Positions 207 to 27,574 of a stretch of 64,000 nt of DNA are shown here, piece after piece. Each line of letters begins with the position of its first letter. The stretch's first letter is position 1. The notes under the pieces were generated by a model that saw nothing but the letters and a program-made list of their open reading frames with translations, did not search any database and was not told the origin of the DNA. The DNA comes from a virus. The position numbers and the translations under genes were made by a program. The DNA lies in the IMG/VR virus record IMGVR_UViG_3300020274_000001, positions 64,001 to 128,000 of that record. One strand, given 5' to 3'.

Positions 207-233
207 CGATATAACGTGCCCTTGTGGCACATA

Positions 234-498
234 GGAAGAGGAAGACTGCATTCTGAATGGGTGTGGTCGAGGATATTAGCAGTAATTGTAAAGTCGGTTG
301 CACCGTTCTCGTTTTACGGACGAGCAAAGAAACAGTTGCGTTGACATGCAGGTGCAATCCCATCCTTAACCACAACTCATGAATGATGTTTCATCAAAAC
401 ACCCACTTCGAACAAGTTACCAACAGGTGACATGTATTGTGGCAATCTTTTGATGTATCAAGCGGAGACGTAACCGGCGAGTAAGGGGCTGGGTTACG
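234..498 (+). ncRNA. candidate structured non-coding RNA
   Basis: Follows GTGCC/GGCAC hairpin+ATAG; no credible ORF; nested stems TGGGTG(258)/CACCCA(400), TGGTCGAGGAT(264)/ATCCTTAACCA(362), TTGCACC(298)/GGTGCAA(351), CGTAACC(469)/GGTTACG(492). Confidence 0.45.
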
Positions 499-513
499 GG
501 CCTTACGGCCATA

Positions 514-579
514 GGTTGGACAGGAAGCAGAGAGTGCCGTTTATGTGGTGCATCCCATCCCTTTTCCTGTCCACCACAG
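514..579 (+). ncRNA. hairpin non-coding module bracketed by the junction signal
   Basis: GG.TGGACAGGAA...TTCCTGTCCA.CC stem followed by ACAG; preceded by GGCCttacGGCC-ATAG. Confidence 0.5.
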
Positions 580-636
580 AAAATTTGCGTGACATGGCGA
601 TGCTGAATGGCAATCGTTGTGTCACGTATTTTTTTT
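580..636 (+). terminator. long hairpin followed by T8 (terminator-like)
   Basis: TGCGTGACATGGCGAT...ATCGTTGTGTCACGTA then TTTTTTTT. Confidence 0.45.
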
Positions 637-684
637 GGACCGAACCACACTATGCGAACTACATCAAAGCCGCAAGGTCCTTAG
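637..684 (+). ncRNA. dual-spacer unit (1 copy)
   Basis: GGACCGAACCA-cactatgc-GAACTACA-tcaaagcc-GCAAGGTCC-TTAG; stem variant GGACC/GGTCC. Confidence 0.75.
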
Positions 685-936
685 ATGCTATCAGATAGCA
701 TATTTGAAGTGCGAGAAGCCCTAATGAGTGCTTATCGACACTATTGCATGGACACCGACACTTTCGCAGGAGTCTATGACGAAGAAATGAAATCGAGAGT
801 TCGTCAACTTGTGACGGACATGACTCGAATACTTCTCACACCGGGGATGGACATTCCACCGGTAGCAGAAGCACCATTGGTTGAAGATTGGGACCCTACC
901 GTATGGCAGGACCTATATCCTCAACCCGAGACTTGA
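685..936 (+). CDS. hypothetical protein
   Basis: ORF starts directly after TTAG junction; stop lies in the next hairpin. Confidence 0.75.
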   Translation: MLSDSIFEVREALMSAYRHYCMDTDTFAGVYDEEMKSRVRQLVTDMTRILLTPGMDIPPVAEAPLVEDWDPTVWQDLYPQPET

Positions 937-945
937 GTCTCATAG

Positions 946-1332
946 ATGGTATGCGTTACATACATCAAAACCGGTGCAGACACCGGATTGGTCGTGCCGT
1001 ATGATACGGGCGACTACCACACATGGAAAGGGCACGAAGCAGACTTGCTTCTAAAAGACCCTCCGAGAGAACTCTCGGGAATGGAAAAGTGCTACCACGT
1101 TAAGTGGATAAACAAGACGCCTCGAATGACAAATAAGCAAATTATTTCTTCTGAAGAATTTGCCGAAAAGTATGAGGTTAATTGTGAAAGAATTGAAGGA
1201 AATACTCCTACATTCCATGTTACACGAGGTGGCGGATTTACAATCAAAGTCACTAACGGCAATGGGGCTTTTGGCCACTTGGACTATGTCGCACGCCCAC
1301 TTTGGGTAACAGGCGATAAGAGGACTCGTTAG
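946..1332 (+). CDS. hypothetical protein
   Basis: GAGACT/AGTCTC hairpin+ATAG+ATG. Confidence 0.75.
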   Translation: MVCVTYIKTGADTGLVVPYDTGDYHTWKGHEADLLLKDPPRELSGMEKCYHVKWINKTPRMTNKQIISSEEFAEKYEVNCERIEGNTPTFHVTRGGGFTIKVTNGNGAFGHLDYVARPLWVTGDKRTR

Positions 1333-1364
1333 AGTTCATAACCGGTCGATACATCGACCATAGG

Positions 1365-2030
1365 ATGAGAGTCATATGGAATGACGATAAAAGGGCACTA
1401 AGGACACACGAATGTCTATCTGCCCTTTCCATCTACCACGCCTACAAAGAGGCTGGAGATAACTATCTTGACGAAGTCGACGTAGCAAGACAAGGCTATG
1501 TGGTTCGTCGAGATATTCGGAATACCACACCGGCATCTGTATTTGAGGTCTTTACAGAACTCTACCAATCATTGGTGGAAGACATAGACAACCTATACAA
1601 TGACCGAGATGGTTTGCGTCAAAGAATGCAAGAAGGTTCATGGGACCCAATTGACGAATTGATGAATGATGGCCGAATGAAAAACGCTATTGGCGTATTC
1701 CTACAAAGGAAGAACATGATTGTTAATCGTATGCCGGAAAATAAAGCATACGACAAGGCTCGAGATGACTTGAGTTCTGCAATCGAGGATATGAAGGGAT
1801 TCATCGGAGCGTTCCTATCGGATGCTTCACAAACACTCTTGACAGCAATTTCACGAAATGGTTTGAAAGACGGAAAGGACATCGGGGCACTCAAGCCTCG
1901 CGTTCTCGGTCTTGACTGGAGTGGTCTTGTTGTTCGCATTGATGTGGACGAACAGACCATCATGCTGAATGAAGAGAAAGAGAAAGAAGACAAGGACACA
2001 AGTCCTTCGTTTGACCCTTCGTATGGTTGA
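1365..2030 (+). CDS. hypothetical protein
   Basis: 221 aa; GGTCGAT/ATCGACC hairpin+ATAG upstream. Confidence 0.8.
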   Translation: MRVIWNDDKRALRTHECLSALSIYHAYKEAGDNYLDEVDVARQGYVVRRDIRNTTPASVFEVFTELYQSLVEDIDNLYNDRDGLRQRMQEGSWDPIDELMNDGRMKNAIGVFLQRKNMIVNRMPENKAYDKARDDLSSAIEDMKGFIGAFLSDASQTLLTAISRNGLKDGKDIGALKPRVLGLDWSGLVVRIDVDEQTIMLNEEKEKEDKDTSPSFDPSYG

Positions 2031-2047
2031 CGGCCTTATGGCCATAG

Positions 2048-2245
2048 ATGATGCACACATCATTAGTATGTCCAATCTGTTGTTCTGAACACACCCAAGC
2101 GGTAATGATTGACCCCGGCGAATTATATTTGCCAGACTCCAATCCAAAGCGTATATTCGCTTGTTCAGAATGCGATTGTTCTTGGGAGGTTGAATACTTC
2201 CCTGCGAAGAAGAAGATTCTTCACAAACTCCCGGTCTCTGCATGA
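2048..2245 (+). CDS. small zinc-ribbon protein
   Basis: CPIC...CSEC; junction signal before ATG. Confidence 0.7.
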   Translation: MMHTSLVCPICCSEHTQAVMIDPGELYLPDSNPKRIFACSECDCSWEVEYFPAKKKILHKLPVSA

Positions 2246-2252
2246 GGCCATA

Positions 2253-2385
2253 GAGCAAAACATGCAGGATGTAATGTTAAAAACACCGTATGCTCATAGA
2301 ACCACAACATATGGCCGGAATTGTATATATGGTGAATGGTTCACAGAGCGAATCGCTTATGGCTGATTGTAACTTGGCAGATAAC
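2253..2385 (+). ncRNA. dual-spacer units (2 copies + 1 degenerate)
   Basis: GAGC-stem unit tgcaggat/aaaacacc; GAACC-stem unit tatggccg/tatatggt; remnant cttatggc/acttggca lacking the 3' stem arm. Confidence 0.75.
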
Positions 2386-2667: not shown

Positions 2668-2693
2668 GTAGACGATATTCAAATCGTCTTAGA

Positions 2694-3134
2694 ATGCCTA
2701 AGACGGCAGACAAAGAAGACGAGGATTCCTATGAGAAGACTCGTGAAGTGATTGGCTCGACTACGAGCGTAATCATAACTCCAGACGGAGAAGACAATGA
2801 GTTCCCAGAAGGAACCATGTGGCTTTACTCCATTGGAATGTATGAAAATTACGGGATACCCGATATCGAAATGAGAGGGGTAGATACTCGATTTGCGAAG
2901 GCCGCAAGTCAAGTAATCAACGAGATGAATGCTTACCGTCTTTTGAACTTGGATAAGCCCATGTTAGTGGGCCAAACCGTTCAATGGAATACTGGTAACT
3001 TCATCATTACTGAATCTGAAGAATGGGATGGAATGTATTCATGGAATGAAGAAACCATGATTCGAATGTCATCTCGTGAAATGGAAATACACTGCACTTC
3101 ATGTCAAATGGAAGATGCAGGAGCAGAGGCTTGA
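2694..3134 (+). CDS. DUF4262-like protein
   Basis: WLYSIGMYENYGIPDIEMRG motif. Confidence 0.5.
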   Translation: MPKTADKEDEDSYEKTREVIGSTTSVIITPDGEDNEFPEGTMWLYSIGMYENYGIPDIEMRGVDTRFAKAASQVINEMNAYRLLNLDKPMLVGQTVQWNTGNFIITESEEWDGMYSWNEETMIRMSSREMEIHCTSCQMEDAGAEA

Positions 3135-3143
3135 TGCCTCATA

Positions 3144-3191
3144 GAACCTAATCATACCTTTTGTAATGCACCATGCGGGCAAGGTTCACAG
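3144..3191 (+). ncRNA. dual-spacer unit (1)
   Basis: tacctttt/ccatgcgg; stem GAACCT/AGGTTC+ACAG. Confidence 0.75.
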
Positions 3192-3413
3192 ATGTCTAAC
3201 GAAAAGACAGCGACACGAGCATGGAAAGCCACGCTCGTTTTTGGAGAGTTTGCCGACCTACGTGCATTCCTCCAGCAACATGGAGTCCGCATATCTGACT
3301 TCGCAATCACCGACAAAGACGGGAATCATCTCGGTTTTGACGACGTGGTGTTGTCTATGCCTCAATCAGTTGATGAGACGCAGACAACTCTGTATAGCGG
3401 AACCGAGGCTTGA
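3192..3413 (+). CDS. hypothetical protein
   Basis: ATG directly after ACAG. Confidence 0.7.
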   Translation: MSNEKTATRAWKATLVFGEFADLRAFLQQHGVRISDFAITDKDGNHLGFDDVVLSMPQSVDETQTTLYSGTEA

Positions 3414-3422
3414 TGCCTCATA

Positions 3423-3514
3423 GAGCAAACAAATAACCTGTGTTACATAACTTATGAATGCTCATAGAACCGAACCATTACATGGGAAATACACATGGCC
3501 AGAAAGGTTCACAG
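3423..3514 (+). ncRNA. dual-spacer units (2)
   Basis: aataacct/taacttat; ttacatgg/catggcca. Confidence 0.75.
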
Positions 3515-3769
3515 ATGAATTTCATTGGAGATTTCATGACGCCGGATGAACTTTCGGCGGACTTCGCCAGAACTGGCGGATACGGCAACATCAGAGACTT
3601 ATCAAAGGAAGGTGGGCCGACTCTGGAACAACAGCACGAAATTAATCGTGTATGGTTGAATCAACAATTTTCTATGCTGAAAGTTGGCGGGATATGGGCG
3701 TGGCCCGAAACCCGTAGACTATTCAAGAAAGTTGATAGAGACCATTTCAGAGAAATTGACGGACCTTGA
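3515..3769 (+). CDS. hypothetical protein
   Basis: Start corrected to the ATG after ACAG. Confidence 0.7.
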   Translation: MNFIGDFMTPDELSADFARTGGYGNIRDLSKEGGPTLEQQHEINRVWLNQQFSMLKVGGIWAWPETRRLFKKVDRDHFREIDGP

Positions 3770-3776
3770 GTCCATA

Positions 3777-3822
3777 GAGCAAAACATACCCTCCGAGTTA
3801 CAACTCATGTGTATGCTCATAG
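3777..3822 (+). ncRNA. dual-spacer unit (1)
   Basis: taccctcc/actcatgt; GAGCA/TGCTC stem. Confidence 0.75.
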
Positions 3823-3925
3823 GAGAGAGGATGCGAGCAGTCGTCCTATGCAATAACTGCCACTTCCAAAGATGGGAAGTATCGGGTGCGAGCAGTCCCC
3901 GAATCAATACTGTGCCTCTCCTTAG
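3822..3925 (+). ncRNA. ~100-nt structured module with two identical loops
   Basis: GGAGAG/CTCTCC closing stem+TTAG; TGCGAGCAGTC at 3832 and 3887, each in a hairpin. Confidence 0.55.
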
Positions 3926-4015
3926 AGCAAACAGACGGTTTGTAATGCAAAGATTACGTTGCTCACAGAACCGAACCAAACACGTTGCAATGTATTGAAA
4001 ATGTATGGTTCACAG
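3925..4015 (+). ncRNA. dual-spacer units (2)
   Basis: gacggttt/aagattac; aacacgtt/ttgaaaat. Confidence 0.75.
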
Positions 4016-4016
4016 A

Positions 4017-5063
4017 ATGGTGAAAATGAACATCACTATACAGTTGGATGACAATGATATCAGTTTAACTGAATTGTTATCGGCTATAATTCACAAGGAA
4101 CATGTTCCTGTGAATGATGTGCCTGTTGTGAAAGTAGAAGAACCTACTCCACAAAAACAGGAAGAGGAAGCACCTACAAAGAAGCCGAGGAAGAAATCTA
4201 AGGCTCGTAAGAATAAAAATTACGTTTGTAGAAAGTGTGGCGCAACCGAATCATCACAATGGAGGCAACGAACAGACCCAAGAGGAACTATGTGCAATAT
4301 TTGTCATATGAAAGAGTATAGACAGATGAGAAACAATGCTCTTGGGAAATCAAAGCCCGTTGTGGAGATAGTTGAGGAGCCCGTTGAGAAAGTAGAAGTA
4401 ATGAAGAAGCCGGTTGTAAAACCACGAATCATTACTCCGAAAAGACGGACTACTAAGCCAAAACTAAAGATTCCTCGAAAGAAGAAGAAGGAAAACCAAC
4501 GCCCCGAACTAAGGGACATTGGCGGACTTGTGGATTCTGACAGACTTGCTCTGCTCAAGAATTCTAACTTCAACACCGTTAGACGGTTTGCGCAAGCACA
4601 CCCGGACAAGTTGATGTCCGTAATGGGTTGTTCTTTGAACGAACTTGAAGCATTGGAAAATGCTCAAAGAAAGGCGGCGGCTCTACACCGGAAATATTCT
4701 ATGATTTCTGCGGCAGAGAGAAACGCTGAACGACTAAAGGACCAGCCCGATGAAAAACCGAAGTGGGAGAAATCAAAAACTCTATCGACGGTTTGGAACG
4801 GAATCGAAGGACGTGAAGTGGGGGCATACATGCTCTCCGACGTAGTGGACAAAGCATATCACATTGCTACTACAAACTACGAAGACACACCTAAGAAGAA
4901 GAAATTCAAAAGTCAACTTCTAACGGCAGGACAAGAAATGTTCGAAAAGATAGTGAAGGCGGCTAACAGCCCTAACTTCTCTATCTTGGGAATGGGCGAC
5001 AACATCGCTCTTCTTGTTCTAAACAAAAAAGACTGGCCCACTCTACGGGACATCGAGGCTTGA
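4017..5063 (+). CDS. DNA-binding protein with GATA-type zinc finger and helix-hairpin-helix-like region
   Basis: CRKC-GATESSQWRQRTDPRGTM-CNIC (C-x2-C-x18-C-x2-C with WR); LRDIGGLV..LLKNSNFNTVRRFAQAHPDKL resembles a RadA-type HhH. Confidence 0.7.
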   Translation: MVKMNITIQLDDNDISLTELLSAIIHKEHVPVNDVPVVKVEEPTPQKQEEEAPTKKPRKKSKARKNKNYVCRKCGATESSQWRQRTDPRGTMCNICHMKEYRQMRNNALGKSKPVVEIVEEPVEKVEVMKKPVVKPRIITPKRRTTKPKLKIPRKKKKENQRPELRDIGGLVDSDRLALLKNSNFNTVRRFAQAHPDKLMSVMGCSLNELEALENAQRKAAALHRKYSMISAAERNAERLKDQPDEKPKWEKSKTLSTVWNGIEGREVGAYMLSDVVDKAYHIATTNYEDTPKKKKFKSQLLTAGQEMFEKIVKAANSPNFSILGMGDNIALLVLNKKDWPTLRDIEA

Positions 5064-5075
5064 TGCCTCATAGGT

Positions 5076-5377: not shown

Positions 5378-5791
5378 ATGACTAACATCGAAATCAACCT
5401 AACACTGGAAGGCGAAGAGGCACTACGTGTTCTACAAGCCATCCTAAACAAAGGAGCAGAAATACCTGTTACCCACACACCTGTGGTGGAGAAAACCGCC
5501 AAACCGGAGACTAATAATTGGACCCACCAGAAAAATACACGGTGGACCGAAAGGCAAATCGATTATCTTTCTTGCATGGTCAGAGACCATTATGCAGAAC
5601 ACGGCTTGATTTCGTTCCGTCATGAAGACCGAATGAAAGTGGAAGCCGAATTCTGGGACCTGTGTGGAGCAATCCGCTCTTGGAAAGGAATGAACGTCAG
5701 AACCTCGATTATGAGGGGCAAAGGCGACAAGCGTTTCTTCCCAGACGGTAAGAAGAAGGTTAAACGTAAGAAAACTCCTAAACGGTCTTGA
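5378..5791 (+). CDS. hypothetical protein (possible Myb-like helical domain)
   Basis: GGTGA RBS; RWTERQIDYL; N-terminus shared with the 23933 ORF. Confidence 0.65.
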   Translation: MTNIEINLTLEGEEALRVLQAILNKGAEIPVTHTPVVEKTAKPETNNWTHQKNTRWTERQIDYLSCMVRDHYAEHGLISFRHEDRMKVEAEFWDLCGAIRSWKGMNVRTSIMRGKGDKRFFPDGKKKVKRKKTPKRS

Positions 5792-5800
5792 TTGACCATA

Positions 5801-5848
5801 GAACCAAACCAAATGGAATGTATTTTACATTATTCGAATGGTTCACAG
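5801..5848 (+). ncRNA. dual-spacer unit (1)
   Basis: aatggaat/cattattc. Confidence 0.75.
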
Positions 5849-6109
5849 ATGGCCCTATCGGTTATTGAAAACAACGTCATGAATGCGCAACTGCATTTCA
5901 TGAGAGACATGCTTGAAGTTCAAAAGAACCAAGCAGAGGCAATGGAAAGAATTGCTAATCAACTCGAAGAGATGATGAAGTTCCTACATGGGACTACCAT
6001 CGAACAAGTCGAAAGAAAACGACAACAAATGAAGAAGAAGACTCAAAAGAATGAAACTTCTGAAGTTGAAGCCATGAAGGAATTCATGCAAAAAACAAAA
6101 GAGGCTTAG
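5849..6109 (+). CDS. hypothetical coiled-coil protein
   Basis: Start corrected to the ATG after ACAG. Confidence 0.7.
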   Translation: MALSVIENNVMNAQLHFMRDMLEVQKNQAEAMERIANQLEEMMKFLHGTTIEQVERKRQQMKKKTQKNETSEVEAMKEFMQKTKEA

Positions 6110-6119
6110 TCCTCATAGA

Positions 6120-7292: not shown

Positions 7293-7301
7293 TCTCCATA
7301 G

Positions 7302-19570: not shown

Positions 19571-19588
19571 AACGGCCTTATGGCCATA

Positions 19589-19813: not shown

Positions 19814-19821
19814 GGCTCATA

Positions 19822-20196: not shown

Positions 20197-20204
20197 GCGT
20201 CATA

Positions 20205-20254
20205 GAATCAAATCAAAAAGTCGGTATTTTAGACACCACGAGTATGATTCACAG
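20205..20254 (+). ncRNA. dual-spacer unit (1)
   Basis: aaaagtcg/gacaccacga; stem variant GAATCA/TGATTC. Confidence 0.7.
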
Positions 20255-20498: not shown

Positions 20499-20524
20499 AG
20501 CAGTGACCTTCGGATGCCAATTAG

Positions 20525-20776: not shown

Positions 20777-20785
20777 AAGAGCATA

Positions 20786-20833
20786 GAACCAAACTAATTC
20801 ACTCGTATTACAAAAGATGCGAATGGTTCACAG
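20786..20833 (+). ncRNA. dual-spacer unit (1)
   Basis: attcactc/aaagatgc. Confidence 0.75.
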
Positions 20834-21121: not shown

Positions 21122-21138
21122 GGTCATATTGACCATAG

Positions 21139-21279
21139 ATGCCTAATTCACAAAAAGGTAGAGAGGCCATACTGGGCCTTAATAATTTGAGAGAGAACAA
21201 TAGACTACTCCGAATTCAAAATAGAATGATACAGACTCTTATTGACGAGATTAGAGATATCAGAAGAAGAGGCTTGTGA
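21139..21279 (+). CDS. 46-aa hypothetical protein (not in ORF track)
   Basis: GGTCA/TGACC+ATAG+ATG; stop falls in the loop of the next hairpin. Confidence 0.6.
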   Translation: MPNSQKGREAILGLNNLRENNRLLRIQNRMIQTLIDEIRDIRRRGL

Positions 21280-21288
21280 TGCCTCATA

Positions 21289-21334
21289 GAGCAAAACACA
21301 GGGCATGAATTGCAGGGGAACGGTATGCTCACAG
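21289..21334 (+). ncRNA. dual-spacer unit (1)
   Basis: cagggcat/ggggaacg. Confidence 0.75.
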
Positions 21335-21703: not shown

Positions 21704-21721
21704 GGAGGAATACCTCCATAG

Positions 21722-22303
21722 ATGGTGAAAAACACCTTCAAAATTGTGGCTGTCGTCAAAGAGGAAAACAAGCAATTGATTTGGGACCTCTTACAAATTG
21801 CACTAAAGCATGACGACATCTATTTTGCATTTGAGGAAGGCAAGCCCTCCGAAATAATGCATAAACCAGCCGACATCAAAAAACTGTCGAAAAAGAAGAA
21901 GAAACCGGAGAAACCTACTCTATCAAGAAAGGAAGTATCCAAGTTGACCAAAGAAAGCATGAAGAAACTCAAAGCAGAGAAACGTGTTTTCACTGGAGCA
22001 GTATTCGGTTGGGATAATCAAAAAGATGGCACAATGAAGCCAAACTGGAAAGAACAAGAAACCATAGACATGATGCGATACTTTTACTACGAAAAGAAGC
22101 AATCATTCTCTTTTATTGCGAAGTGGCTCAATGCCAACGACGTAAAGGGAAAGCGTGGTGGAAAGTGGCAAAGTTCGGGAGTATCAAGAGTCGTTCACAA
22201 CGACTTCCATGCTTCTCGAAATGACTTCAAGAAACCTAAGTGGTTTTTGAAGAAGACCTATCCAGAAATGACATGGGGTAAGAACCCAAAAATCGTCTCG
22301 TAA
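21722..22303 (+). CDS. protein with the DNA-binding 'Recombinase' domain of large serine recombinases, no catalytic domain
   Basis: FGW..PNWKEQETI..SFSFIAKWLNANDVKGKRGGKWQSSGVSRVV. Confidence 0.65.
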   Translation: MVKNTFKIVAVVKEENKQLIWDLLQIALKHDDIYFAFEEGKPSEIMHKPADIKKLSKKKKKPEKPTLSRKEVSKLTKESMKKLKAEKRVFTGAVFGWDNQKDGTMKPNWKEQETIDMMRYFYYEKKQSFSFIAKWLNANDVKGKRGGKWQSSGVSRVVHNDFHASRNDFKKPKWFLKKTYPEMTWGKNPKIVS

Positions 22304-22311
22304 GGGACATA

Positions 22312-22406
22312 GAGCAAAACAAGTCGTGGGTATTGCACATATTCCATGTATGCTCATAGAACTGAATCAATAAGGTTGTATTGCAATTGGCCAAAAAGGT
22401 TCACAG
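22312..22406 (+). ncRNA. dual-spacer units (2)
   Basis: agtcgtgg/catattccat; ataaggtt/attggcca. Confidence 0.75.
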
Positions 22407-22634
22407 ATGGATGTTAAAGAACTACATCAATATGTCTCGCAACTGCGAGAATACATTGTGACGCTTGAGCGTCGCATTGCTACACTTGAAAAACAAGTGA
22501 ATCCGCCACAGACCAAGGACCTTGGTAACGGGCGGAGAACGTTCACACGTTCAGGTATCAACAACCTGCTCGACGGAATGATTGGGAGGCACCGAAAGGA
22601 CCCCGTCACCGGAGAGTGGCACAAAGTGAATTAG
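22407..22634 (+). CDS. hypothetical protein
   Basis: ATG after ACAG. Confidence 0.7.
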   Translation: MDVKELHQYVSQLREYIVTLERRIATLEKQVNPPQTKDLGNGRRTFTRSGINNLLDGMIGRHRKDPVTGEWHKVN

Positions 22635-22648
22635 GCCAATAGGCCATA

Positions 22649-22696
22649 GAACCTAAACACAAGAAGGGAATTACATGAGCCCCGAATGGTTCACAG
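22649..22696 (+). ncRNA. dual-spacer unit (1)
   Basis: caagaagg/tgagcccc. Confidence 0.75.
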
Positions 22697-23212
22697 ATGT
22701 CTGTAAAAGAATACGTGCAGATACGTGCTGACCAATACAAACAGCATGACAACGTCTGGGGGGATTTACCCCGAGATGCGCCAATTAGATTGGCTGATAT
22801 CTTTGAATGGATATTACAGAATGGACAAACCTTTAGCGGGACCAATATGGATGCCGCTGATGAAATTGTCGAGCATTCTTTTCGTGCACCAGAAATAAAG
22901 GCGTGCTACCATAATGCGTTTTTAGTCCCCCCAGAAGTAAGATACTTCGAGGGATGGTGGGCAGGAATTATTCCTGTCGAACATGCGTGGAATGTCGTAG
23001 ACGACAAAGTCGCTGATGTAACGCTCACTATTGAGCAACATCGTGAACGAGCGTTGAGAGACAGACAAGAATACTTTGGAATTGAAATTCCAAGGGATTG
23101 GATGTGGAAGCAAGTAAGTAAAGGAACACACTTTAGGCCAGAAGGCTCGAGTGGTCCTTTCATCTACGACTACGTTATGGAGCAAATCGCAAAAGAACGA
23201 GAAGAGGAATAA
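22697..23212 (+). CDS. possible papain/transglutaminase-like fold protein
   Basis: CYHNA..YFEGW..HAWNV..D pattern. Confidence 0.45.
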   Translation: MSVKEYVQIRADQYKQHDNVWGDLPRDAPIRLADIFEWILQNGQTFSGTNMDAADEIVEHSFRAPEIKACYHNAFLVPPEVRYFEGWWAGIIPVEHAWNVVDDKVADVTLTIEQHRERALRDRQEYFGIEIPRDWMWKQVSKGTHFRPEGSSGPFIYDYVMEQIAKEREEE

Positions 23213-23221
23213 TTCCTCATA

Positions 23222-23314
23222 GAGCAAAACATGATACCAGCATTACAGCCAATCCGAATGCTCATAGAACCGAATCAAGTTTCACGTATGGCAAGTTCGT
23301 CGTATGGTTCACAG
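23222..23314 (+). ncRNA. dual-spacer units (2)
   Basis: tgatacca/gccaatcc; agtttcac/agttcgtc. Confidence 0.75.
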
Positions 23315-23731: not shown

Positions 23732-23748
23732 CGGCCTTACGGCCATAG

Positions 23749-23910: not shown

Positions 23911-23932
23911 TCGGTCGGCCCTGCGGCCATAG

Positions 23933-24574
23933 ATGAAGACAAACATCAACATCCAACTCGAAGGCGAAGAAGCCCTCGAGGTTATACGGGCTTTGCTTGG
24001 AAACCCAAGTAAGTCTGTCAAGGTAGAAGTTCTACCAGACGATACACAAACGACAGAAAGTCGTAAAATGACAGAAGAACCAGACAACACTCGACATTGC
24101 ACAAGATGTGGAGTGAAATTAGAATCTTCTGTAAATATCAAAACAGGTAGATTTATTCGAAGAGAATTTGTCTGCAATGGTTGTTATTCTGGAAGCAGAA
24201 AGGGCAAGAAGGTGAACCGAACAGGTTCCAATCACTGTCGTAAATGCGGAGTAGAATTGACAACAGATAATTGGCAGAGTAAACGAAGTTATATCTGCAC
24301 ATCTTGTAAAGTCAAAAAATCGGATGACCACGTTACTATCACGGCTGAACAGCGAACCCAGTGGGCTCGTGAACGTCGTGAAATCATAGGCGGCAAAATC
24401 ACACAAGTAGGAACCTTCCAAGGTGCGCTCATCGTAGAGCATATCCGAGGAACACACTACAAGATACAACTCCCAAGCGGAGCAGTGATTGACGCCAAGC
24501 ACAAGAAGCAGAAGACCCTTGGTGGGGACGAACTCGGTGCTGGTTGGAGTAAGTGGGAGAAACGGTCTGGATAG
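23933..24574 (+). CDS. double zinc-finger protein
   Basis: CTRC..CNGC and CRKC..CTSC. Confidence 0.75.
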   Translation: MKTNINIQLEGEEALEVIRALLGNPSKSVKVEVLPDDTQTTESRKMTEEPDNTRHCTRCGVKLESSVNIKTGRFIRREFVCNGCYSGSRKGKKVNRTGSNHCRKCGVELTTDNWQSKRSYICTSCKVKKSDDHVTITAEQRTQWARERREIIGGKITQVGTFQGALIVEHIRGTHYKIQLPSGAVIDAKHKKQKTLGGDELGAGWSKWEKRSG

Positions 24575-24580
24575 ACCATA

Positions 24581-24672
24581 GAGCAAACAAGCCATCCGAA
24601 ATATACAAAATGTGAAGGCTCATAGAACCCAATCAAGTGATTTGAAATACAGGAAATTTGAATGGTTCACAG
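24581..24672 (+). ncRNA. dual-spacer units (2)
   Basis: agccatcc/caaaatgt; agtgattt/ggaaattt. Confidence 0.75.
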
Positions 24673-24673: not shown

Positions 24674-25333
24674 ATGCCTAATTGGGCTTACAACAATATG
24701 ACCGTTGAGTCAGACGGAAGCGAAACAGGTGATGAACAATTGCGCTGTTTCGTTAATGTCGCTATCACTGAAGATAGCGAATTGACTTTTAGCGGTCACT
24801 TACCTATGCCGAAAGAACTCGACATAGGCAATGCTCCCTTTGCTGGAATAAAGGATGATGAATCTCTGCTCGAGGCGTTAGCCAAGATAGAGAATCCAGA
24901 AACGCCGGAGTTTACAAAGGGGAACTTACTAAAACAAATCAAGATGTATCAGAACAAGAAAGAATTCGGATACTCTTCTTGGTATGACTGGAACTGTGCC
25001 AAGTGGGGGACAAAGTGGGATGCTTCGCAATCCAATGTCTCCTCTTTCGGAAATAGTGTTCAAATCAGTTTCAATACTGCTTGGGACCTACCGAGAGGTT
25101 GGCTTTTTCATATAATGAACTTAGCAGAATGCTCACACCTGCGAATACGCCTTGTGTGTGAAGCAGAAGGTGAAGCAGTTATACTGGACTCCAATGGAAA
25201 GGAAGTCCCGTATGAAGAAAATGTAGACGGACAATGGTTTCACCATGCCGAATATGTTGAGAAAGAGCCTAATGGTAAAATCAGTCATTACAATAAAACC
25301 GCCGAACAACGGTGGAAAGACGGAGAATTTTAA
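24674..25333 (+). CDS. DUF1281/Api92(YubB)-like protein
   Basis: MPNWAYN, WYDWNCAKWGTKWDA, FNTAW. Confidence 0.8.
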   Translation: MPNWAYNNMTVESDGSETGDEQLRCFVNVAITEDSELTFSGHLPMPKELDIGNAPFAGIKDDESLLEALAKIENPETPEFTKGNLLKQIKMYQNKKEFGYSSWYDWNCAKWGTKWDASQSNVSSFGNSVQISFNTAWDLPRGWLFHIMNLAECSHLRIRLVCEAEGEAVILDSNGKEVPYEENVDGQWFHHAEYVEKEPNGKISHYNKTAEQRWKDGEF

Positions 25334-25341
25334 TCTCCATA

Positions 25342-25434
25342 GAGCGAATCATTCAGCCTGTATTGCACAGCCTAAGAACGCTCATAGAACCGAACCATCA
25401 TTGAGGAATTACAAAACACCAGAATGGTTCACAG
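25342..25434 (+). ncRNA. dual-spacer units (2)
   Basis: ttcagcct/cagcctaa; tcattgag/aaacacca. Confidence 0.75.
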
Positions 25435-25815
25435 ATGTCAGAAATTATTCATGACAGCCACGTTGAGTTAGAGAGTCTATCTCGACGATACATTGAGGAG
25501 CAAAGAGCCCTCAAGCAAGCGAAGGATTCAGTAGAATCCATCAAAAAGGATATACAGAAAATCCTTGGGAGTTCACGTTTTGTGGAAACCCAGCACTTCA
25601 CCGTAGAGGTGAAGGAAGTGGAACAGAAGAGAATGATGAGTAAAGACGATTTTATTCGCAAACATTCTCCACCAATGAAGGATTCACAAGGCAACGTCAT
25701 GCTGAATCCAGACAACGAACCAATCCTTGACACTGCTGTTGGAGCGAAATTCTACAACGAACATCTTGTAGAGCGTCCTTCCAACAGATTCTATGTGAAG
25801 AAAAAACCGGTCTGA
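25435..25815 (+). CDS. hypothetical protein (coiled coil + beta; probable paralog of 26785)
   Basis: IKKDIQKILG..VETQHFTV vs IKKDKEYVRETMG..LETPAFTA. Confidence 0.7.
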   Translation: MSEIIHDSHVELESLSRRYIEEQRALKQAKDSVESIKKDIQKILGSSRFVETQHFTVEVKEVEQKRMMSKDDFIRKHSPPMKDSQGNVMLNPDNEPILDTAVGAKFYNEHLVERPSNRFYVKKKPV

Positions 25816-25825
25816 AAGGACCATA

Positions 25826-25919
25826 GAGCAAAAACATCGTCTCTGAAATGCACAAGAAAGGAATGCTCATAGAACCAAATCAAGCATGCTGAATTGCAGG
25901 TGATTCGTAAGGTTCACAG
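25826..25919 (+). ncRNA. dual-spacer units (2)
   Basis: tcgtctct/caagaaag; agcatgct/ggtgattc. Confidence 0.75.
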
Positions 25920-25921
25920 AA

Positions 25922-26569
25922 ATGCGTTATTTCAAAAATTATGACGACGCTTGGAGTTATCTCCAAAGAGGTCGAAACATCGAGAAGGGGAGACCTATCG
26001 GTGCGCACACCAGAATTTACAAACGTAAAGATGGAACAATAGCAATCAGATATCACAGCACTGATATTGTTCGCTATTACAAGCATAAGAACGGAAAGCA
26101 ATGGATGTCATTTGACAACGAGGGATGGACCTCCACGACAACATTGCAAAGACTGCATTACGTCATGCCCAATGGCATAGGCGTCGATACGAGTCTAAAC
26201 CGATTCATAGGACAGTGGTTTACCAGATGTAACGGTGAATTATACAACCTAAACCATCACGTAAAATTCGATGAAAATCTTAACGTAAAAAACAAGAAAC
26301 AGATGTCTCTGAAAACGATGGACAATATCAGTGATGCTGGGACAAGAATAAGAAAATTGTTAGCATCATCATTGAGTTCAATTGAAAGAGATGTTTCAAA
26401 GAAGAGGCAAGAAAATGCCGAACTCTCCTACGAGAGAATTCAACTTCGTGGCGAAATAATGGCTTTCGAAGAAATGAGAGAAACACTTCGTGGAGAAGTA
26501 GGATACTTGTTGAAACTAAAGAAGGGCGACACCGATAATGGTGCAAAAGACGTCCTCAACAGGGTGTAA
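25922..26569 (+). CDS. conserved phage-type hypothetical protein
   Basis: IRYHSTDIV..GWTSTTTLQRL. Confidence 0.7.
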   Translation: MRYFKNYDDAWSYLQRGRNIEKGRPIGAHTRIYKRKDGTIAIRYHSTDIVRYYKHKNGKQWMSFDNEGWTSTTTLQRLHYVMPNGIGVDTSLNRFIGQWFTRCNGELYNLNHHVKFDENLNVKNKKQMSLKTMDNISDAGTRIRKLLASSLSSIERDVSKKRQENAELSYERIQLRGEIMAFEEMRETLRGEVGYLLKLKKGDTDNGAKDVLNRV

Positions 26570-26577
26570 TGCCCATA

Positions 26578-26784
26578 GAGCGAAACATCGAACCCGAATT
26601 ACATTGAACCCGTAATTCGCTCATAGAGCGATAGGTCATAGGACTAAACCATAACAAAAGAAATACAAGAGGTCTGAAAAGTCCATAGAGCAAACAACAA
26701 CGAAGAACTGTATACAATTAGAATGCTCATAGAACCGAACCACACCAAATATGCCGAATTACAGGGTGGCAGAATGGTTCACAG
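26578..26784 (+). ncRNA. dual-spacer array (4 units)
   Basis: tcgaaccc/ttgaaccc; taacaaaa/agaggtct (stem GGACT/AGTCC); acaacgaa/tacaatta; caccaaatatgcc/gggtggca. Confidence 0.8.
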
Positions 26785-27168
26785 ATGTCAGACGACATAC
26801 AATACGTCATGGCCAGAATTAAGGCCATGGAAGATGTGAGAAAGAATCTCGCATCTGCGATAAAGAAAGACAAAGAATATGTCAGAGAAACAATGGGTGA
26901 AAGGGAAGTCTTGGAGACCCCAGCCTTCACTGCAAAGATTGTTACTCGGACTTCAACACGATTGTTGGGGATAGAACATATTCGTAACCTATTAGGGTCG
27001 ACAACCGTGGATAAAATCACGAAGACGTCGGAATCTAAGTCGCTGTCAATCAAAGAAACGTTGGCTAATTTTGAACCGTTCGAAGTCGAAGACCTCGAAT
27101 TAGTTCCAGATTGGGCCAAGTCTGCCGCTATTACGCTACAAGTGAGGGAATTACTTGGCGAGAATTAG
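26785..27168 (+). CDS. hypothetical protein
   Basis: ATG after ACAG. Confidence 0.7.
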   Translation: MSDDIQYVMARIKAMEDVRKNLASAIKKDKEYVRETMGEREVLETPAFTAKIVTRTSTRLLGIEHIRNLLGSTTVDKITKTSESKSLSIKETLANFEPFEVEDLELVPDWAKSAAITLQVRELLGEN

Positions 27169-27427
27169 GCGAGCATCGGACAGATATCATACTCAAATCG
27201 AAACGATATTGAGAGAAAAAGGTCCGCTTGTTGCTTATGACATCCGTCAAGCAATGGTTGGGCGTTGGAAAAACGTCCCTACTCCGAATCAACTCGGAAA
27301 CCTATTAGCGAAAAACAAGAACATTAAATCATTAGGACCGGGACACAAAAAATCGTTCTCGGCTCTACTCGATGGTTCTGGCACAGGAGGTGTAAACCTC
27401 TGGGCTTTGGTTGAACAAGGGGATTGA
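27155..27427 (+). CDS. winged-helix protein (DUF3860-like)
   Basis: ILREKGPL..VPTPNQLGNLLAK..W. Confidence 0.55.
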   Translation: MARIRRASDRYHTQIETILREKGPLVAYDIRQAMVGRWKNVPTPNQLGNLLAKNKNIKSLGPGHKKSFSALLDGSGTGGVNLWALVEQGD

Positions 27428-27434
27428 CCCCATA

Positions 27435-27574
27435 GAGCAAAACAGGCACGGTGAAATACATAGGACACGTATGCTCATAGAACCAAAACACTTTGTCGGT
27501 ATTGCATACTTGTAGTGTGGTTCACAGAATCGAATCAAGTATACAGTATTGTAGAACAAAAGAATGATTTATTG
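27435..27574 (+). ncRNA. dual-spacer array (3 units)
   Basis: ggcacggt/taggacac; ctttgtcg/tacttgta; agtataca/gaacaaaa. Confidence 0.8.

What the first reader, a model, noticed from the sequence alone, without database searches (positions are those of the whole stretch)
216..27480. Recurrent 'stem + NNAG' punctuation in front of most genes and RNA modules of the left block
Seen: modules are joined by a 4-7 bp stem of variable sequence followed by ATAG, ACAG, TTAG or CCAG. Next comes an ATG (usually directly, sometimes after 1-6 nt) or another RNA unit whose 5' stem arm starts on that same G. Examples: GAGACT-tg-AGTCTC-ATAG-ATG (946), GGAGA-ataa-TCTCC-ATAG-ATG (7302), GGAC-ttaat-GTCC-TTAG-ATG (10638), GGACC-aatga-GGTCC-ATAG-ATG (12033), GGCC-ttac-GGCC-ATAG (499, 12424, 23733). 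The upstream stop often lies in the loop, so proteins end in EA, EE, GE or RS. Loop size ranges from 2 nt to 1.2 kb. The signal was not noticed right of 27.6 kb. Inference: one endonuclease cuts a long transcript 3' of each stem, releasing leaderless mRNAs and small RNAs. The stem+3-nt overhang is reminiscent of a tRNA acceptor end. Alternatives: ssDNA hairpin recombination sites of an integron-like cassette system, or hairpin promoters.
Basis: partly seen in the sequence, partly recalled or inferred. Interest (0 to 1): 0.85.

Follow-up and report, generated by a model that had tools for sequence, protein, structure and literature searches.

The report
Hairpin-AUAG punctuation of viral genes
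In a family of marine archaeal-type viruses, nearly every gene of a 27-kb block is preceded by a small RNA hairpin plus the letters AUAG (or by guide-RNA-like units ending the same way), which most likely marks where one long transcript is cut into many leaderless messages and small RNAs.

Summary
A short G...C hairpin followed by ATAG occurs 40 times on the + strand of window 1-27,600, against 3 on the - strand and 2.5 in shuffles. It is absent right of 27.6 kb. ACAG follows only the 45-48-nt repeat units. TTAG and CCAG are rare, but relatives carry ATAG or ACAG at the same gene starts.

The signal is conserved in 35 related marine contigs, 252 sense against 17 antisense, with compensatory and G-U changes in the stems. 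No promoter-like motif lies upstream. The block lies between two hairpin+T8/T9 terminators. Its genes lack the Shine-Dalgarno motifs that the neighbouring blocks use. Three same-sample RNA contigs start exactly on the junction G.

The repeat units have the architecture of stem-loop TIGR guide RNAs, and the genome encodes a Tas-like protein.

Best reading (0.6): RNA processing sites that release leaderless mRNAs and guide-like RNAs. Cleavage chemistry and the nuclease are not shown.

Earlier first-stage notes on this same genome had proposed both the punctuation and the TIGR reading.

The parts
598..636 (+). hairpin + T8 terminator-like site that closes the preceding transcription unit
   Evidence: one of only three T runs of 6 or more on the + strand in window 1-27,700
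637..684 (+). 48-nt unit-B-like module (GGACC...GGTCC) ending TTAG, directly before ATG 685
   Evidence: relatives have GGCCC+TCAG here
216..234 (+). hairpin GTGCC/GGCAC + ATAG; a non-coding RNA follows
   Evidence: RNA contig X20 record 9 starts at 234, depth 100; the stem is replaced by GGCC/GGCC in L089 and L144
499..514 (+). hairpin GGCC/GGCC + ATAG; a long hairpin module follows
514..580 (+). RNA module with terminal stem GTTGGACAGG/CCTGTCCACC (9 of 10 pairs) ending ACAG
   Evidence: read
928..945 (+). hairpin + ATAG, ATG 946
   Evidence: orthologues have CCGG/CCGG instead
1344..1363 (+). hairpin + ATAG, ATG after 1 nt
2032..2047 (+). hairpin + ATAG, ATG 2048
   Evidence: in L161 the tas gene is inserted at this junction
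2233..2253 (+). hairpin (one G-U) + ATAG, unit A follows
2253..2299 (+). unit A
2299..2346 (+). unit B variant (48 nt, GAACCA/TGGTTC + ACAG); ATG 2359 of a SWIB-domain ORF lies 12 nt behind
2671..2692 (+). hairpin + TTAG, ATG after 1 nt
   Evidence: orthologous gene preceded by unit B or unit A + ACAG
3126..3144 (+). hairpin + ATAG, unit B follows
3144..3191 (+). unit B, ATG 3192
3405..3423 (+). hairpin + ATAG, unit A follows
3423..3467 (+). unit A
3467..3514 (+). unit B, ATG 3515
3761..3777 (+). hairpin + ATAG, unit A follows
3777..3822 (+). unit A
3925..3968 (+). unit A (ends ACAG)
3968..4015 (+). unit B, ATG after 1 nt
   Evidence: RNA contig X7 record 25 starts at 4015
5055..5073 (+). hairpin + ATAG, ATG after 2 nt
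5378..5791 (+). exception: ORF without a junction, preceded by GGGTGAT (Shine-Dalgarno-like) 5 nt upstream
5784..5801 (+). hairpin + ATAG, unit B follows
5801..5848 (+). unit B, ATG 5849
6101..6118 (+). hairpin + ATAG, ATG after 1 nt
7284..7301 (+). hairpin + ATAG, ATG 7302
8449..8466 (+). hairpin + ATAG, unit B follows
8466..8513 (+). unit B, ATG 8514
8812..8833 (+). hairpin (one G-U) + ATAG, ATG after 6 nt
9795..9810 (+). hairpin + ATAG, unit A follows
   Evidence: GGCCA/TGGCC becomes GACCA/TGGTC in L089
9810..9855 (+). unit A
9855..9903 (+). unit B (49 nt), ATG 9904
10111..10128 (+). hairpin + ATAG, unit B follows
10128..10175 (+). unit B, ATG 10176
10621..10637 (+). hairpin + TTAG, ATG 10638
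   Evidence: the same gene follows unit B or another hairpin + ATAG in four relatives
12014..12032 (+). hairpin + ATAG, ATG 12033
   Evidence: GGACC/GGTCC becomes GGGCC/GGCCC in L089
12424..12439 (+). hairpin + ATAG, 61-nt module follows
12439..12499 (+). module with terminal stem GGAGA/TCTCC + CCAG, ATG 12500
   Evidence: relatives have hairpin + ATAG before the same gene
12987..13003 (+). hairpin (one G-U) + ATAG, ATG 13004
13186..13201 (+). hairpin + ATAG, long non-coding RNA follows
   Evidence: RNA contig X7 record 30 starts at 13201, depth 33
13201..14465 (+). 1.26-kb non-coding module closed by GGACGC/GCGTCC + CCAG
14465..14512 (+). unit B, ATG after 1 nt
15242..15257 (+). hairpin + ATAG, unit B follows
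15257..15304 (+). unit B (ends ATAG), ATG 15305
15619..15637 (+). hairpin + ATAG, unit B follows
15637..15685 (+). unit B, ATG 15686
15958..15974 (+). hairpin + ATAG, ATG 15975
16330..16346 (+). hairpin (one G-U) + ATAG, ATG 16347
16581..16599 (+). hairpin + ATAG, unit A follows
16599..16644 (+). unit A
16644..16691 (+). unit B, ATG 16692
17887..17914 (+). hairpin (loop 12) + ATAG, ATG after 1 nt (RNase H gene)
18397..18413 (+). hairpin (one G-U) + ATAG, ATG 18414
19092..19108 (+). hairpin + ATAG, ATG 19109
19574..19589 (+). hairpin + ATAG, unit B follows
19589..19636 (+). unit B, ATG 19637
19804..19822 (+). hairpin + ATAG, unit B follows
19822..19869 (+). unit B, ATG 19870
20188..20205 (+). 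hairpin + ATAG, unit B variant follows
20205..20254 (+). unit B variant with compensated stem GAATC/GATTC
20516..20533 (+). hairpin + CCAG, ATG 20534
20767..20786 (+). hairpin + ATAG, unit B follows
20786..20833 (+). unit B, ATG 20834
21122..21138 (+). hairpin + ATAG, ATG 21139
21269..21289 (+). hairpin + ATAG, unit A follows
21289..21334 (+). unit A (ends ACAG), ATG 21335
21704..21721 (+). hairpin + ATAG, ATG 21722
22295..22312 (+). hairpin (one G-U) + ATAG, unit A follows
22312..22359 (+). unit A
22359..22406 (+). unit B, ATG 22407
22634..22649 (+). hairpin + ATAG, unit B follows
22649..22696 (+). unit B, ATG 22697
23204..23222 (+). hairpin + ATAG, unit A follows
23222..23267 (+). unit A
23267..23314 (+). 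unit B, ATG 23315
23733..23748 (+). hairpin + ATAG, ATG 23749
23917..23932 (+). hairpin + ATAG, ATG 23933
24564..24581 (+). hairpin + ATAG, unit A follows
24581..24625 (+). unit A
24625..24672 (+). unit B, ATG after 1 nt
25322..25342 (+). hairpin + ATAG, unit A follows
25342..25387 (+). unit A
25387..25434 (+). unit B, ATG 25435
25809..25826 (+). hairpin + ATAG, unit A follows
   Evidence: GGTC/GACC becomes GCTC/GAGC in L128 and L159
25826..25872 (+). unit A
25872..25919 (+). unit B, ATG after 2 nt
26562..26578 (+). hairpin (one G-U) + ATAG, unit A follows
26578..26626 (+). unit A
26688..26732 (+). unit A
26732..26784 (+). unit B (53 nt), ATG 26785
27419..27435 (+). hairpin + ATAG, unit A follows
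27435..27480 (+). unit A
27480..27527 (+). last unit B of the block
27574..27618 (+). hairpin + T9 terminator-like site at the end of the block

Best explanation
Proposed mechanism. The block from about 637 to 27,618, and similar units upstream of the window, is transcribed as long polycistronic RNA. In that RNA every module ends in a small stem closed by a G-C pair, followed by N-Y-A-G (mostly AUAG; ACAG after the guide-like units). An endoribonuclease that reads the base of the stem plus this single-stranded tail cuts at AYA^G.

Products:
- mRNAs whose AUG lies 0-2 nt from the 5' end, i.e. leaderless, the form archaeal ribosomes translate without a Shine-Dalgarno motif. Their 3' end is a protective hairpin holding the stop codon.
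- 45-48-nt stem-loop RNAs with two 7-8-nt variable segments. These have the architecture of stem-loop TIGR guide RNAs and are the likely cargo of the virus's Tas-like protein.
- A few larger non-coding RNAs.

Because all modules share the same short junction, they also recombine there, giving cassette-like mosaicism.

Shown: the motif, its strand bias, its conservation with covariation, the lack of SD and of promoter motifs, the flanking terminators, three RNA contig ends on the G, and the Tas-like fold.

Inferred: cleavage itself, its exact position and chemistry, a single nuclease, translation as leaderless mRNA, and guide function of the units.
For: 1. Enrichment and strand bias: 40 vs 3 vs 2.5 expected. 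In 35 related contigs (204,275 bp), 252 sense against 17 antisense. 26 unrelated GTDB loci that matched the unit pattern by chance have 0-3 per strand.

2. Structure under selection.
- Orthologous stems are replaced by different but still complementary stems.
- Of 131 orthologous comparisons, 39 are identical, 68 are changed with the hairpin kept (11 with one G-U), and 24 are lost or lack ATAG. By my reading of the rows, 9 of the 24 belong to three in-gene chance sites and 9 are artefacts of an ATAG inside the loop.
- G-T/T-G 33 against A-C/C-A 9 in single-mismatch stems, which points to RNA of the sense strand.
- The closing G-C pair forms in the MFE fold of a +-25-nt context at 35 of 38 sites.

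3. A 5' end is needed here.
- 44 of 56 candidate ORFs start 0-8 nt behind a junction G. By my tally most of them lie 0 nt behind it.
- The one clear exception (5378) has GGGTGAT upstream.
- Genes right of 27.6 kb carry GGAGG/GGTGA 5-9 nt upstream.

4. No promoter: information content is at most 0.07 bit at every position from -60 to -24 in 250 hairpin sites.

5. One transcription unit: T runs of 6 or more on the + strand occur only at 629 (T8), 7819 (T6, inside an ORF) and 27610 (T9). The first and last follow G+C hairpins.

6. RNA ends.
- Of the 16 contigs of runs X7 and X20 that were displayed (29 were laid), 3 begin exactly on a junction G: 234, 4015 and 13201.
- My own estimate of the chance expectation is about 0.1 (32 ends x about 65 sites / 20,000 nt).
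- Two of the three have depth 100 and 33, against 3-15 for the rest.
- None of the 16 bridges a junction.

7. Hairpin, unit A and unit B are interchangeable in front of the same gene in different relatives, always keeping the AG|ATG register.

8. Units match the stem-loop tigRNA plan: stem, YCA, 7-nt variable, (T)G, WAWT, RYA, 8-nt variable, G, stem. There is no covariation inside the variable parts.

9. The predicted structure of P0001 (pLDDT 84.6) hits TasH and TasR complexes first, Foldseek E 5e-7 to 1e-5.

10. Stem-loop tigRNAs elsewhere are reported to be processed at a conserved trinucleotide at the stem base, by an unknown nuclease (bioRxiv 10.64898/2026.09.09.750476, sections 10, 11 and 13 read).
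Against: - No read-level data: all runs were Logan contigs, which cannot show strand, end chemistry or the frequency of ends.
- Only 3 ends hit a junction, and only 16 of the 29 laid contigs of X7 and X20 were displayed. One of the three (4015) has one unaligned base.
- A contig of run X19 (oligo-dT library, related strain) runs through several junctions (2691-3655). Unprocessed RNA, or DNA, therefore exists.
- No candidate endoribonuclease was found among the 68 ORFs scanned with Pfam (19 of them, in part the same ORFs, also with PHROGs).
- 80 viral loci with Tas relatives of 36-47% identity show no comparable hairpin + tetramer signal. The link to Tas is therefore lineage-specific at best.
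- Stems of 4 bp are weak: mean -5.6 kcal/mol.
- The G-U excess is modest once chance single-mismatch hits are allowed for (controls).
Confidence: 0.6

Rival explanations
1. Each junction is a transcription start. The virus's own RNA polymerase starts at the G after ATA, either from hairpin or unit promoters or by a stop-start mode at each junction, so the 5' ends are primary.
For: - The genome encodes an Rpb1-like largest subunit (Pfam Rpb1 domains 1-4, E 3e-45 to 2e-5).
- The RNA contig ends on the G fit a start site as well as a cut.
- +1 would be G followed by A in 226 of 268 sites.
- In units the 9-nt conserved loop lies at -29 to -21 from the G, where an archaeal TATA box would sit (the TATA position is from general knowledge).
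- The TIGR preprint itself leaves processing versus promoter-driven units open (section 13 read).
Against: - Hairpin-type junctions have no conserved sequence from -60 to -24.
- Their stems vary freely in sequence and keep only complementarity, with G-U tolerated. That is not how duplex DNA is read, and 4-bp DNA cruciforms are implausible.
- There are no terminators between genes, so about 87 starts would give nested read-through transcripts.
Confidence: 0.15
2. There is no cleavage. The hairpins are 3'-end or stability elements, or translational devices (termination-reinitiation, or a structure that presents the AUG) on an intact polycistronic RNA. The contig ends are assembly accidents.
For: - The stop codon lies in the loop at 143 of 268 sites, 8-15 nt before the next ATG, a geometry that could couple translation.
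- A junction-bridging RNA contig exists (X19).
Against: - At about half of the junctions 45-100 nt of units lie between stop and ATG, too far for coupling.
- The invariant CATAG and the exact AG|ATG register are not explained.
- Three exact contig starts on the G, against about 0.1 expected.
Confidence: 0.13
3. The junctions are primarily DNA recombination sites of an integron-like or bridge-RNA-like cassette system, with the IS110-related Tas-like protein acting in exchange.
For: - 58 of 153 homology ends lie within 5 nt of a junction G, against 5.7 expected.
- Modules are present or absent exactly between two junctions (L144 lacks window 236-495).
- The tas gene itself sits at different junctions in different relatives.
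- P0001 also resembles IS110-family recombinases.
- A serine recombinase is encoded elsewhere in the genome.
Against: - Strict sense-strand bias and G-U tolerance point to RNA.
- By my reading, P0001 consists of coiled coil + Nop-like domain only; Pfam found no nuclease or recombinase domain, only a marginal Transposase_20 hit at E 0.11.
- Breakpoints at short shared junctions are expected from ordinary recombination between conserved linkers.
- This reading does not explain the SD-less ATGs.
Confidence: 0.07

Closest known systems
Stem-loop TIGR arrays with TasA/TasR (Faure et al. 2025, PMC12045711, passages read; Xu et al. 2026 preprint 10.64898/2026.09.09.750476, sections 5, 7, 10, 11, 13 read)
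   Same: - Units of stem, box C-like CA, spacer, box D-like G, 9-nt loop, spacer, stem.
- Variable but palindromic stems.
- A Nop-type Tas-like protein without a nuclease domain.
- A conserved short motif at the stem base marking RNA boundaries; nuclease unknown.
   Different: - The motif is AYAG, not CUU.
- Units are not in an array next to tas. They are spread over at least 38 kb, one or two in front of individual genes, abutting the ATG.
- The same stem-base signal also occurs on 49 hairpins that carry no spacers and precede protein genes.
- tas itself is one of the punctuated cassettes.
tRNA punctuation of mitochondrial polycistronic transcripts (recalled from general knowledge, no paper read)
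   Same: Long transcripts are cut at structured RNAs between genes, giving mRNAs that start at or next to the AUG and have almost no 3' UTR.
   Different: - No tRNAs (ARAGORN 0).
- Stems are 4-7 bp hairpins or guide-like units.
- The nuclease is not identified.
- The setting is an archaeal-type virus.
RNase III sites between early genes of phage T7 (recalled)
   Same: An early polycistronic phage RNA is cut at intergenic hairpins into separate mRNAs.
   Different: RNase III needs long duplexes and cuts inside them. Here stems are 4-7 bp and the apparent end lies 3 nt beyond the stem. The resulting mRNAs are leaderless rather than SD-led.
Cas6-type cutting of CRISPR repeats at the 3' base of a hairpin (recalled)
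   Same: A hairpin plus adjacent single-stranded nucleotides defines a cut at the 3' foot, releasing guide RNAs.
   Different: Stems here differ in sequence from site to site. No CRISPR array or Cas6 was found in the ORFs scanned. The signal is also used for mRNAs.
Integron attC sites / conserved boundary sequences of mosaic phage genomes (recalled)
   Same: Cassette-like gain, loss and shuffling, with breakpoints at a short conserved structured junction.
   Different: Strictly sense-strand, G-U tolerant, directly abutting start codons. No integron integrase was seen in the ORFs scanned.

Membership tests
TIGR-Tas (stem-loop type) | Tas protein with Nop-type RNA-binding domain | tested here: met
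   P0001 (genome 52046-53083): AlphaFold model pLDDT 84.6. The top 10 Foldseek PDB hits are TasH and TasR complexes, E 5e-7 to 1e-5, followed by IS110-family proteins. phmmer to 9mty_A gave E 9.8e-5. There is no Pfam hit at E<0.01.
TIGR-Tas (stem-loop type) | Units with two 8-12-nt spacers flanked by box C (CCA) and box D (UG), about 9-nt loop, palindromic flanking stems | tested here: met
   20 aligned 48-nt units:
- stem GAACC/GGTTC
- YCA (CA in 19-20 of 20)
- 7 variable nt
- T/G then G (G in 20 of 20)
- WAWT
- R-Y-A (A in 20 of 20)
- 8 variable nt
- G (19 of 20)
Stem changes are compensated between unit A, unit B and the 20205 variant. The spacers, at 7-8 nt, are at or below the published range.
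TIGR-Tas (stem-loop type) | Units in tandem arrays beside or inside the tas gene | tested here: not met
   The nearest units lie about 390 nt downstream of tas. The other 38 are dispersed through window 2253-27527, separated by ORFs.
TIGR-Tas (stem-loop type) | Units processed to discrete RNAs that Tas binds; both spacers pair with the two strands of a DNA target | not testable with these tools
   No small-RNA data. The spacer pairs of 31 units find no target in the virus's own 140-kb genome above shuffled-pair controls (0 exact and 2 one-mismatch hits, against 0-1 and 1-8 in the controls). The target geometry A + rc(B) was derived by me from text passages of PMC12045711.
tRNA punctuation | tRNA genes or tRNA-like cloverleaves between ORFs | tested here: not met
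   ARAGORN found 0 genes in 64 kb. Rfam found 0 matches at gathering score.
RNase III processing site | Extended duplex of about two helical turns | tested here: not met
   Stem lengths over 268 sites: 4 bp (105), 5 bp (117), 6 bp (40), 7 bp (5), 8 bp (1).
Archaeal BRE/TATA promoter | Conserved A/T-rich box about 26 nt upstream of the start | tested here: not met
   For hairpin-type junctions, information is at most 0.07 bit at -60..-24, and A+T at -32..-21 is 0.58 against 0.54 overall. For units the loop motif lies at that distance, so the test is inconclusive there.
Archaeal bulge-helix-bulge splice site | Two 3-nt bulges separated by exactly 4 bp, with flanking helices | tested here: not met
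   The stem length varies from 4 to 8 bp. Only one possible outer pair exists (C at -1 of the stem in 172 of 268 sites, with the junction G), and the next position is A opposite A. The motif definition is recalled.
Integron attC / cassette system | Tyrosine integrase and bottom-strand folded attC with extrahelical bases | tested here: inconclusive
   No such integrase was found among the ORFs scanned, but not every ORF of the genome was scanned. Breakpoints do cluster at junctions.

The most novel reading that the evidence does not exclude
A Tas-independent, stem-foot-plus-NYAG-specific endoribonuclease (host or viral) matures a 27-kb early transcript of an archaeal virus into more than 40 leaderless mRNAs and about 40 TIGR-type guide RNAs. 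Guide biogenesis and gene expression would then share one punctuation code, and the same junctions would act as universal cassette joints. That would be an RNA-level counterpart of both mitochondrial punctuation and integron cassettes, and the first view of how stem-loop tigRNAs are cut out.
Probability: 0.4. Interest if true: 0.9.

Novelty: new variant of a known kind. Interest (0 to 1): 0.8.

Why it matters
- It would be a gene-expression strategy not described for archaeal viruses: dozens of genes without promoter or ribosome-binding site of their own, each made translatable by an RNA cut.
- It bears on an open question in the TIGR-Tas field, namely who cuts stem-loop tigRNAs and what the signal is. 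Here the same stem-base signal sits on hairpins that lack the Tas-binding boxes, which argues for a nuclease that does not need Tas and gives about 87 natural substrates to test.
- It shows guide-like RNAs embedded as 5' modules of individual viral genes rather than in arrays. Array-based finders would miss this layout.
- It gives a mechanistic handle on cassette mosaicism in an abundant, uncultured group of marine viruses (magrovirus group D-like, which carry their own RNA polymerase subunit).

Tried and rejected
- tRNA or known RNA families: ARAGORN 0. Rfam 0 at gathering score on the window, and 0 at E<=1 on 13150-14520 and on L003 13000-17000.
- An internal hairpin in unit B: rejected. There is no fixed-register covariation, and own-versus-cross best stacks were 4.25 against 3.92.
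- Bacterial -35/-10 reading of unit B: considered by eye and dropped, because the spacing does not fit.
- Bulge-helix-bulge and RNase P/Z logic: considered. The stems vary in length, and a cut at the 5' foot would remove the stop codons.
- Self-targets of the unit spacers: none above control. Searches were faulty versions of that script (a regex length error) and are not used.
- Close relatives in IMG/VR through Tas, primase or MCM as single queries: nothing.
- 80 distant Tas loci: no punctuation.
- My first DNA pattern had the wrong gap length (chance hits only, L006 read). The corrected pattern in viral contigs gave 1 chance locus. In GTDB genomes it gave 26 single chance hits without the motif.
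- Search for a nuclease: Pfam on 68 ORFs, PHROGs on 19, ESM Atlas on 2. No endoribonuclease was found; only two RNase H, one PD-(D/E)XK nuclease and one weak HD hit.
- Literature:
  - The paper search for 'archaeal virus' + leaderless + polycistronic + hairpin + processing found 1 paper, on another virus (listing only).
  - Magrovirus papers PMC5434244 and PMC11706807 (find passages only) mention no repeats, hairpins or TIGR.
  - Supplements are closed. Table S1 of the TIGR paper and the TIGRSafari resource, which I could not see, may already list these loci.
- RNA runs: parts of the block without RNA contigs, and the oligo-dT run's coverage, are not used as evidence of absence or of polyadenylation.
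- Complex prediction, build_rna_model and the search of protein representatives were not used.

Full report
WHAT IS THERE.
The window is positions 64,001-128,000 of a single 140,336-bp virus record. From 637 to 27,618 all plausible genes lie on the + strand.

A perfect hairpin (stem of 4 bp or more, loop 2-8 nt) directly followed by ATAG occurs 40 times on the + strand of 1-27,600 and 3 times on the - strand. 100 dinucleotide shuffles gave 2.5 +- 1.6, max 7. ACAG, TTAG and CCAG after short hairpins are at chance in the same test.

CATAGATG occurs 14 times in the left block on +, and 1, 1 and 0 times in the other three compartments. In 4-kb bins over the genome the signal fills window 1-28,000 with 42 hits. 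It continues for about 20 kb upstream of the window (9 hits) and is absent to the right.

ANATOMY.
Besides the short hairpins there are two repeat families.
- Unit B is 48 nt in 20 of 25 copies: GAACC-N-AA-Y-CA, 7 variable nt, (T)G-WAWT-RYA, 8 variable nt, G-WAT-GGTTC, then ACAG.
- Unit A is 44-49 nt and has 15 copies. It has the same plan, with GAGCA...TGCTC and mostly ATAG.

The terminal 5-bp stems differ between A, B and the 20205 variant (GAATC/GATTC) by compensated changes. The variable parts show no covariation with each other.

Every unit starts on the G that ends the preceding NYAG. The order is always ORF (stop codon in or just before a short hairpin), ATAG, optional unit A, optional unit B, ATG.

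With one G-U allowed I count 49 short-hairpin junctions, 15 unit A and 23 unit B, plus a few longer modules:
- 514-580;
- 637-684;
- 12439-12499;
- the 1.26-kb module 13201-14465, closed by a 6-bp stem + CCAG (read).

Of 56 candidate + strand ORFs of 45 aa or more, 44 start 0-8 nt behind a junction G, and by my tally most lie 0 nt behind it. One (5378) has a GGGTGAT Shine-Dalgarno-like motif instead. Of the 11 others, several lie inside units or in regions I read as non-coding.

CONSERVATION.
Single-protein searches found no close relative in IMG/VR. A scan of metagenome contigs with the unit-B pattern gave 111 loci, of which 80 were listed. Thirty-five of these hold 2 or more units. In their 204,275 bp, hairpin + ATAG occurs 252 times on the unit strand and 17 times on the other.

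Over window plus relatives there are 268 distinct sites. The first stem base is G in 246, the last is C in 246, and the base after ATAG is A in 226. The upstream stop lies in the loop at 143 sites.

At orthologous positions, anchored through the upstream gene, 39 hairpins are identical and 68 are changed but still fold, 11 of them with one G-U. 24 are lost or lack ATAG. By my reading of the rows, 9 of those belong to three in-gene chance sites (9489, 11179, 12833) and 9 are artefacts of an ATAG inside the loop.

In single-mismatch stems G-T/T-G number 33 and A-C/C-A number 9. Control tails show no such bias.

In front of one and the same gene, different relatives carry a hairpin, a unit A or a unit B, with tails ATAG, ACAG, TTAG, CCAG or TCAG. 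The AG|ATG register is always kept.

Homology between genomes breaks at the junctions: 58 of 153 ends lie within 5 nt, against 5.7 expected and a maximum of 15 in 1000 trials.

26 chance matches of the pattern in GTDB genomes have 0-3 hairpin + ATAG per strand.

RNA OR DNA, CUT OR START.
- Sense-only occurrence, free stem sequence with kept complementarity, and G-U tolerance all point to an RNA structure.
- Upstream of hairpin-type junctions nothing is conserved from -60 to -24 (at most 0.07 bit), so there is no BRE/TATA-type promoter.
- T runs of 6 or more on the + strand of the window occur only at 629 (T8), 7819 (T6, in an ORF) and 27610 (T9) within the block, plus 32729 and 37076 to the right. 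The T runs at 629 and 27610 follow G+C hairpins and read T8-9GG, like three more upstream. The block therefore looks like one terminator-to-terminator unit.
- Genes right of 27.6 kb mostly have GGAGG/GGTGA 5-9 nt before the ATG. The left-block genes have none. They can hardly be translated as internal cistrons, and they fit leaderless mRNAs, which need a 5' end at the AUG (general knowledge of archaeal translation).

RNA DATA.
Only Logan contigs were available. Of the 29 contigs laid from two metatranscriptome runs of the source sample (X7: 19, X20: 10), 16 were displayed. Three of these begin exactly on a junction G:
- 234-428, depth 100;
- 4015-4392, with one unaligned base;
- 13201-13670, depth 33.

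The other 13 lie inside ORFs or the long non-coding module, and none bridges a junction. By my estimate about 0.1 such coincidences are expected.

The uneven depth argues against DNA carry-over for these RNAs. A graph branch caused by strain variation would normally leave k-1 shared bases, so a true RNA end is the simpler reading, but this is an inference.

A contig of an oligo-dT library from a related strain (X19) bridges several junctions, so precursor RNA or DNA also exists.

WHAT THE UNITS ARE.
An earlier first-stage note on this genome suggested TIGR-like guides, and I tested that.

The ORF at genome 52046-53083 (P0001) has no Pfam family. It has more than 2500 metagenomic homologues. 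Its model (pLDDT 84.6) hits TasH and TasR tigRNA complexes first and IS110-family recombinases next.

The published plan of stem-loop tigRNAs matches units A and B. That plan is: palindromic variable stems, box C CCA, spacer, box D UG, a loop of mostly 9 nt, a second spacer, and processing at a conserved trinucleotide at the stem base by an unidentified nuclease. [quoted passage not shown] (Sources: PMC12045711, passages; preprint 10.64898/2026.09.09.750476, sections 5, 7, 10, 11, 13.)

What does not match is the layout: no array, but single or paired units in front of individual genes.

The tas gene itself is a punctuated cassette. In all six genomes where it was seen it is preceded by stem + NYAG|ATG and followed by a hairpin + ATAG. 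In L161 it sits at the junction that corresponds to window 2047.

The spacer pairs of 31 units have no target in the virus genome above control.

THE VIRUS.
The record encodes a thermosome subunit, PolB and an AAA ATPase, MCM and AEP primase, a serine recombinase and an Rpb1-like subunit with NADYDGD. This is the gene set that Philosof et al. 2017 list for the unresolved 'group D' of magroviruses of Marine Group II archaea (PMC5434244, passage read). The runs that hold the sequence are marine.

MECHANISM AND RIVALS.
Best reading (0.6): processing punctuation, as set out under Best explanation.

Rivals:
- primary starts at each G by the viral polymerase (0.15);
- structural or translational elements without cleavage (0.13);
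- DNA recombination sites as the primary function (0.07).

I take recombination at the junctions to be real but secondary.

The nuclease is unknown. Scans of 68 ORFs found none. Because the signal also sits on hairpins without box C/D, recognition probably does not need Tas; this is an inference.

NOVELTY.
Punctuated processing of polycistronic RNA (mitochondria, T7) and stem-base processing of stem-loop tigRNAs are both known. What is not in the papers I searched or read is:
- the stem + NYAG code;
- its use at about 50 protein-gene junctions to make leaderless mRNAs;
- guide-like units serving as removable gene leaders;
- the cassette behaviour.

Supplements and TIGRSafari could not be checked.

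LIMITS.
There are no read-level ends, no strand information and no end chemistry. The gene calls are rough. The relatives were found through unit B, so they are biased towards having the system. Only 80 of the 111 metagenome loci were returned.

Noticed in passing
window 13201-14465: A 1.26-kb non-coding module with many short stems and a four-fold repeated motif (AACATATTCTA-like). It is conserved at 83-87% in relatives and covered by RNA contigs of depth 33 and 9. There is no Rfam match at E<=1.
   Followed up: partly
window 234-428: The most abundant RNA contig of the block (depth 100 in run X20). It is non-coding and starts on the junction G. Relative L144 lacks window 236-495 exactly between two ATAG sites.
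   Followed up: partly
genome 52046-53083 (L003:12046-13083) and relatives L152, L161, L106, L126, L149: The Tas-like gene is itself flanked by junction signals and occupies different junctions in different relatives. In this genome two unit B copies lie about 390-480 nt downstream of it.
   Followed up: yes
window 34,000-64,000 and 27,635-34,200 (- strand): Genes outside the punctuated block use GGAGG/GGTGA-type Shine-Dalgarno motifs and often overlap or abut. Two expression modes therefore coexist in one genome.
   Followed up: partly
genome 38529-43523 (- strand; L003:2-3523 holds the N-terminal 1174 aa): Rpb1-like RNA polymerase largest subunit, 1664 aa, with NADYDGD at residue 718 and an RNase HI gene next to it. 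Together with thermosome, PolB and resolvase this fits magrovirus 'group D'.
   Followed up: partly
window 16692-17903, 17916-18374, 2359-2667, 4017-5063: The left block encodes a second AEP-primase-like protein (E 1.3e-6), an RNase H (E 2e-33), a SWIB/MDM2-domain protein (E 8e-13) and a protein with a weak GATA-type zinc-finger hit (E 3e-4).
   Followed up: no
It has no Rfam match at E<=1, and the ORF has no Pfam, PHROGs or ESM Atlas relatives.
   Followed up: partly
window 1-20,000, run X19: An oligo-dT-selected marine RNA library holds contigs of a related strain over 28 of 30 bins of the block. Whether this reflects A-rich internal priming, polyadenylation or DNA carry-over is open.
   Followed up: no
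window 629, 27610; genome 50944, 56709, 58801: Recurrent terminator-like sites of the form (hairpin) T7-9 GG delimit the transcription units of the punctuated region.
   Followed up: partly
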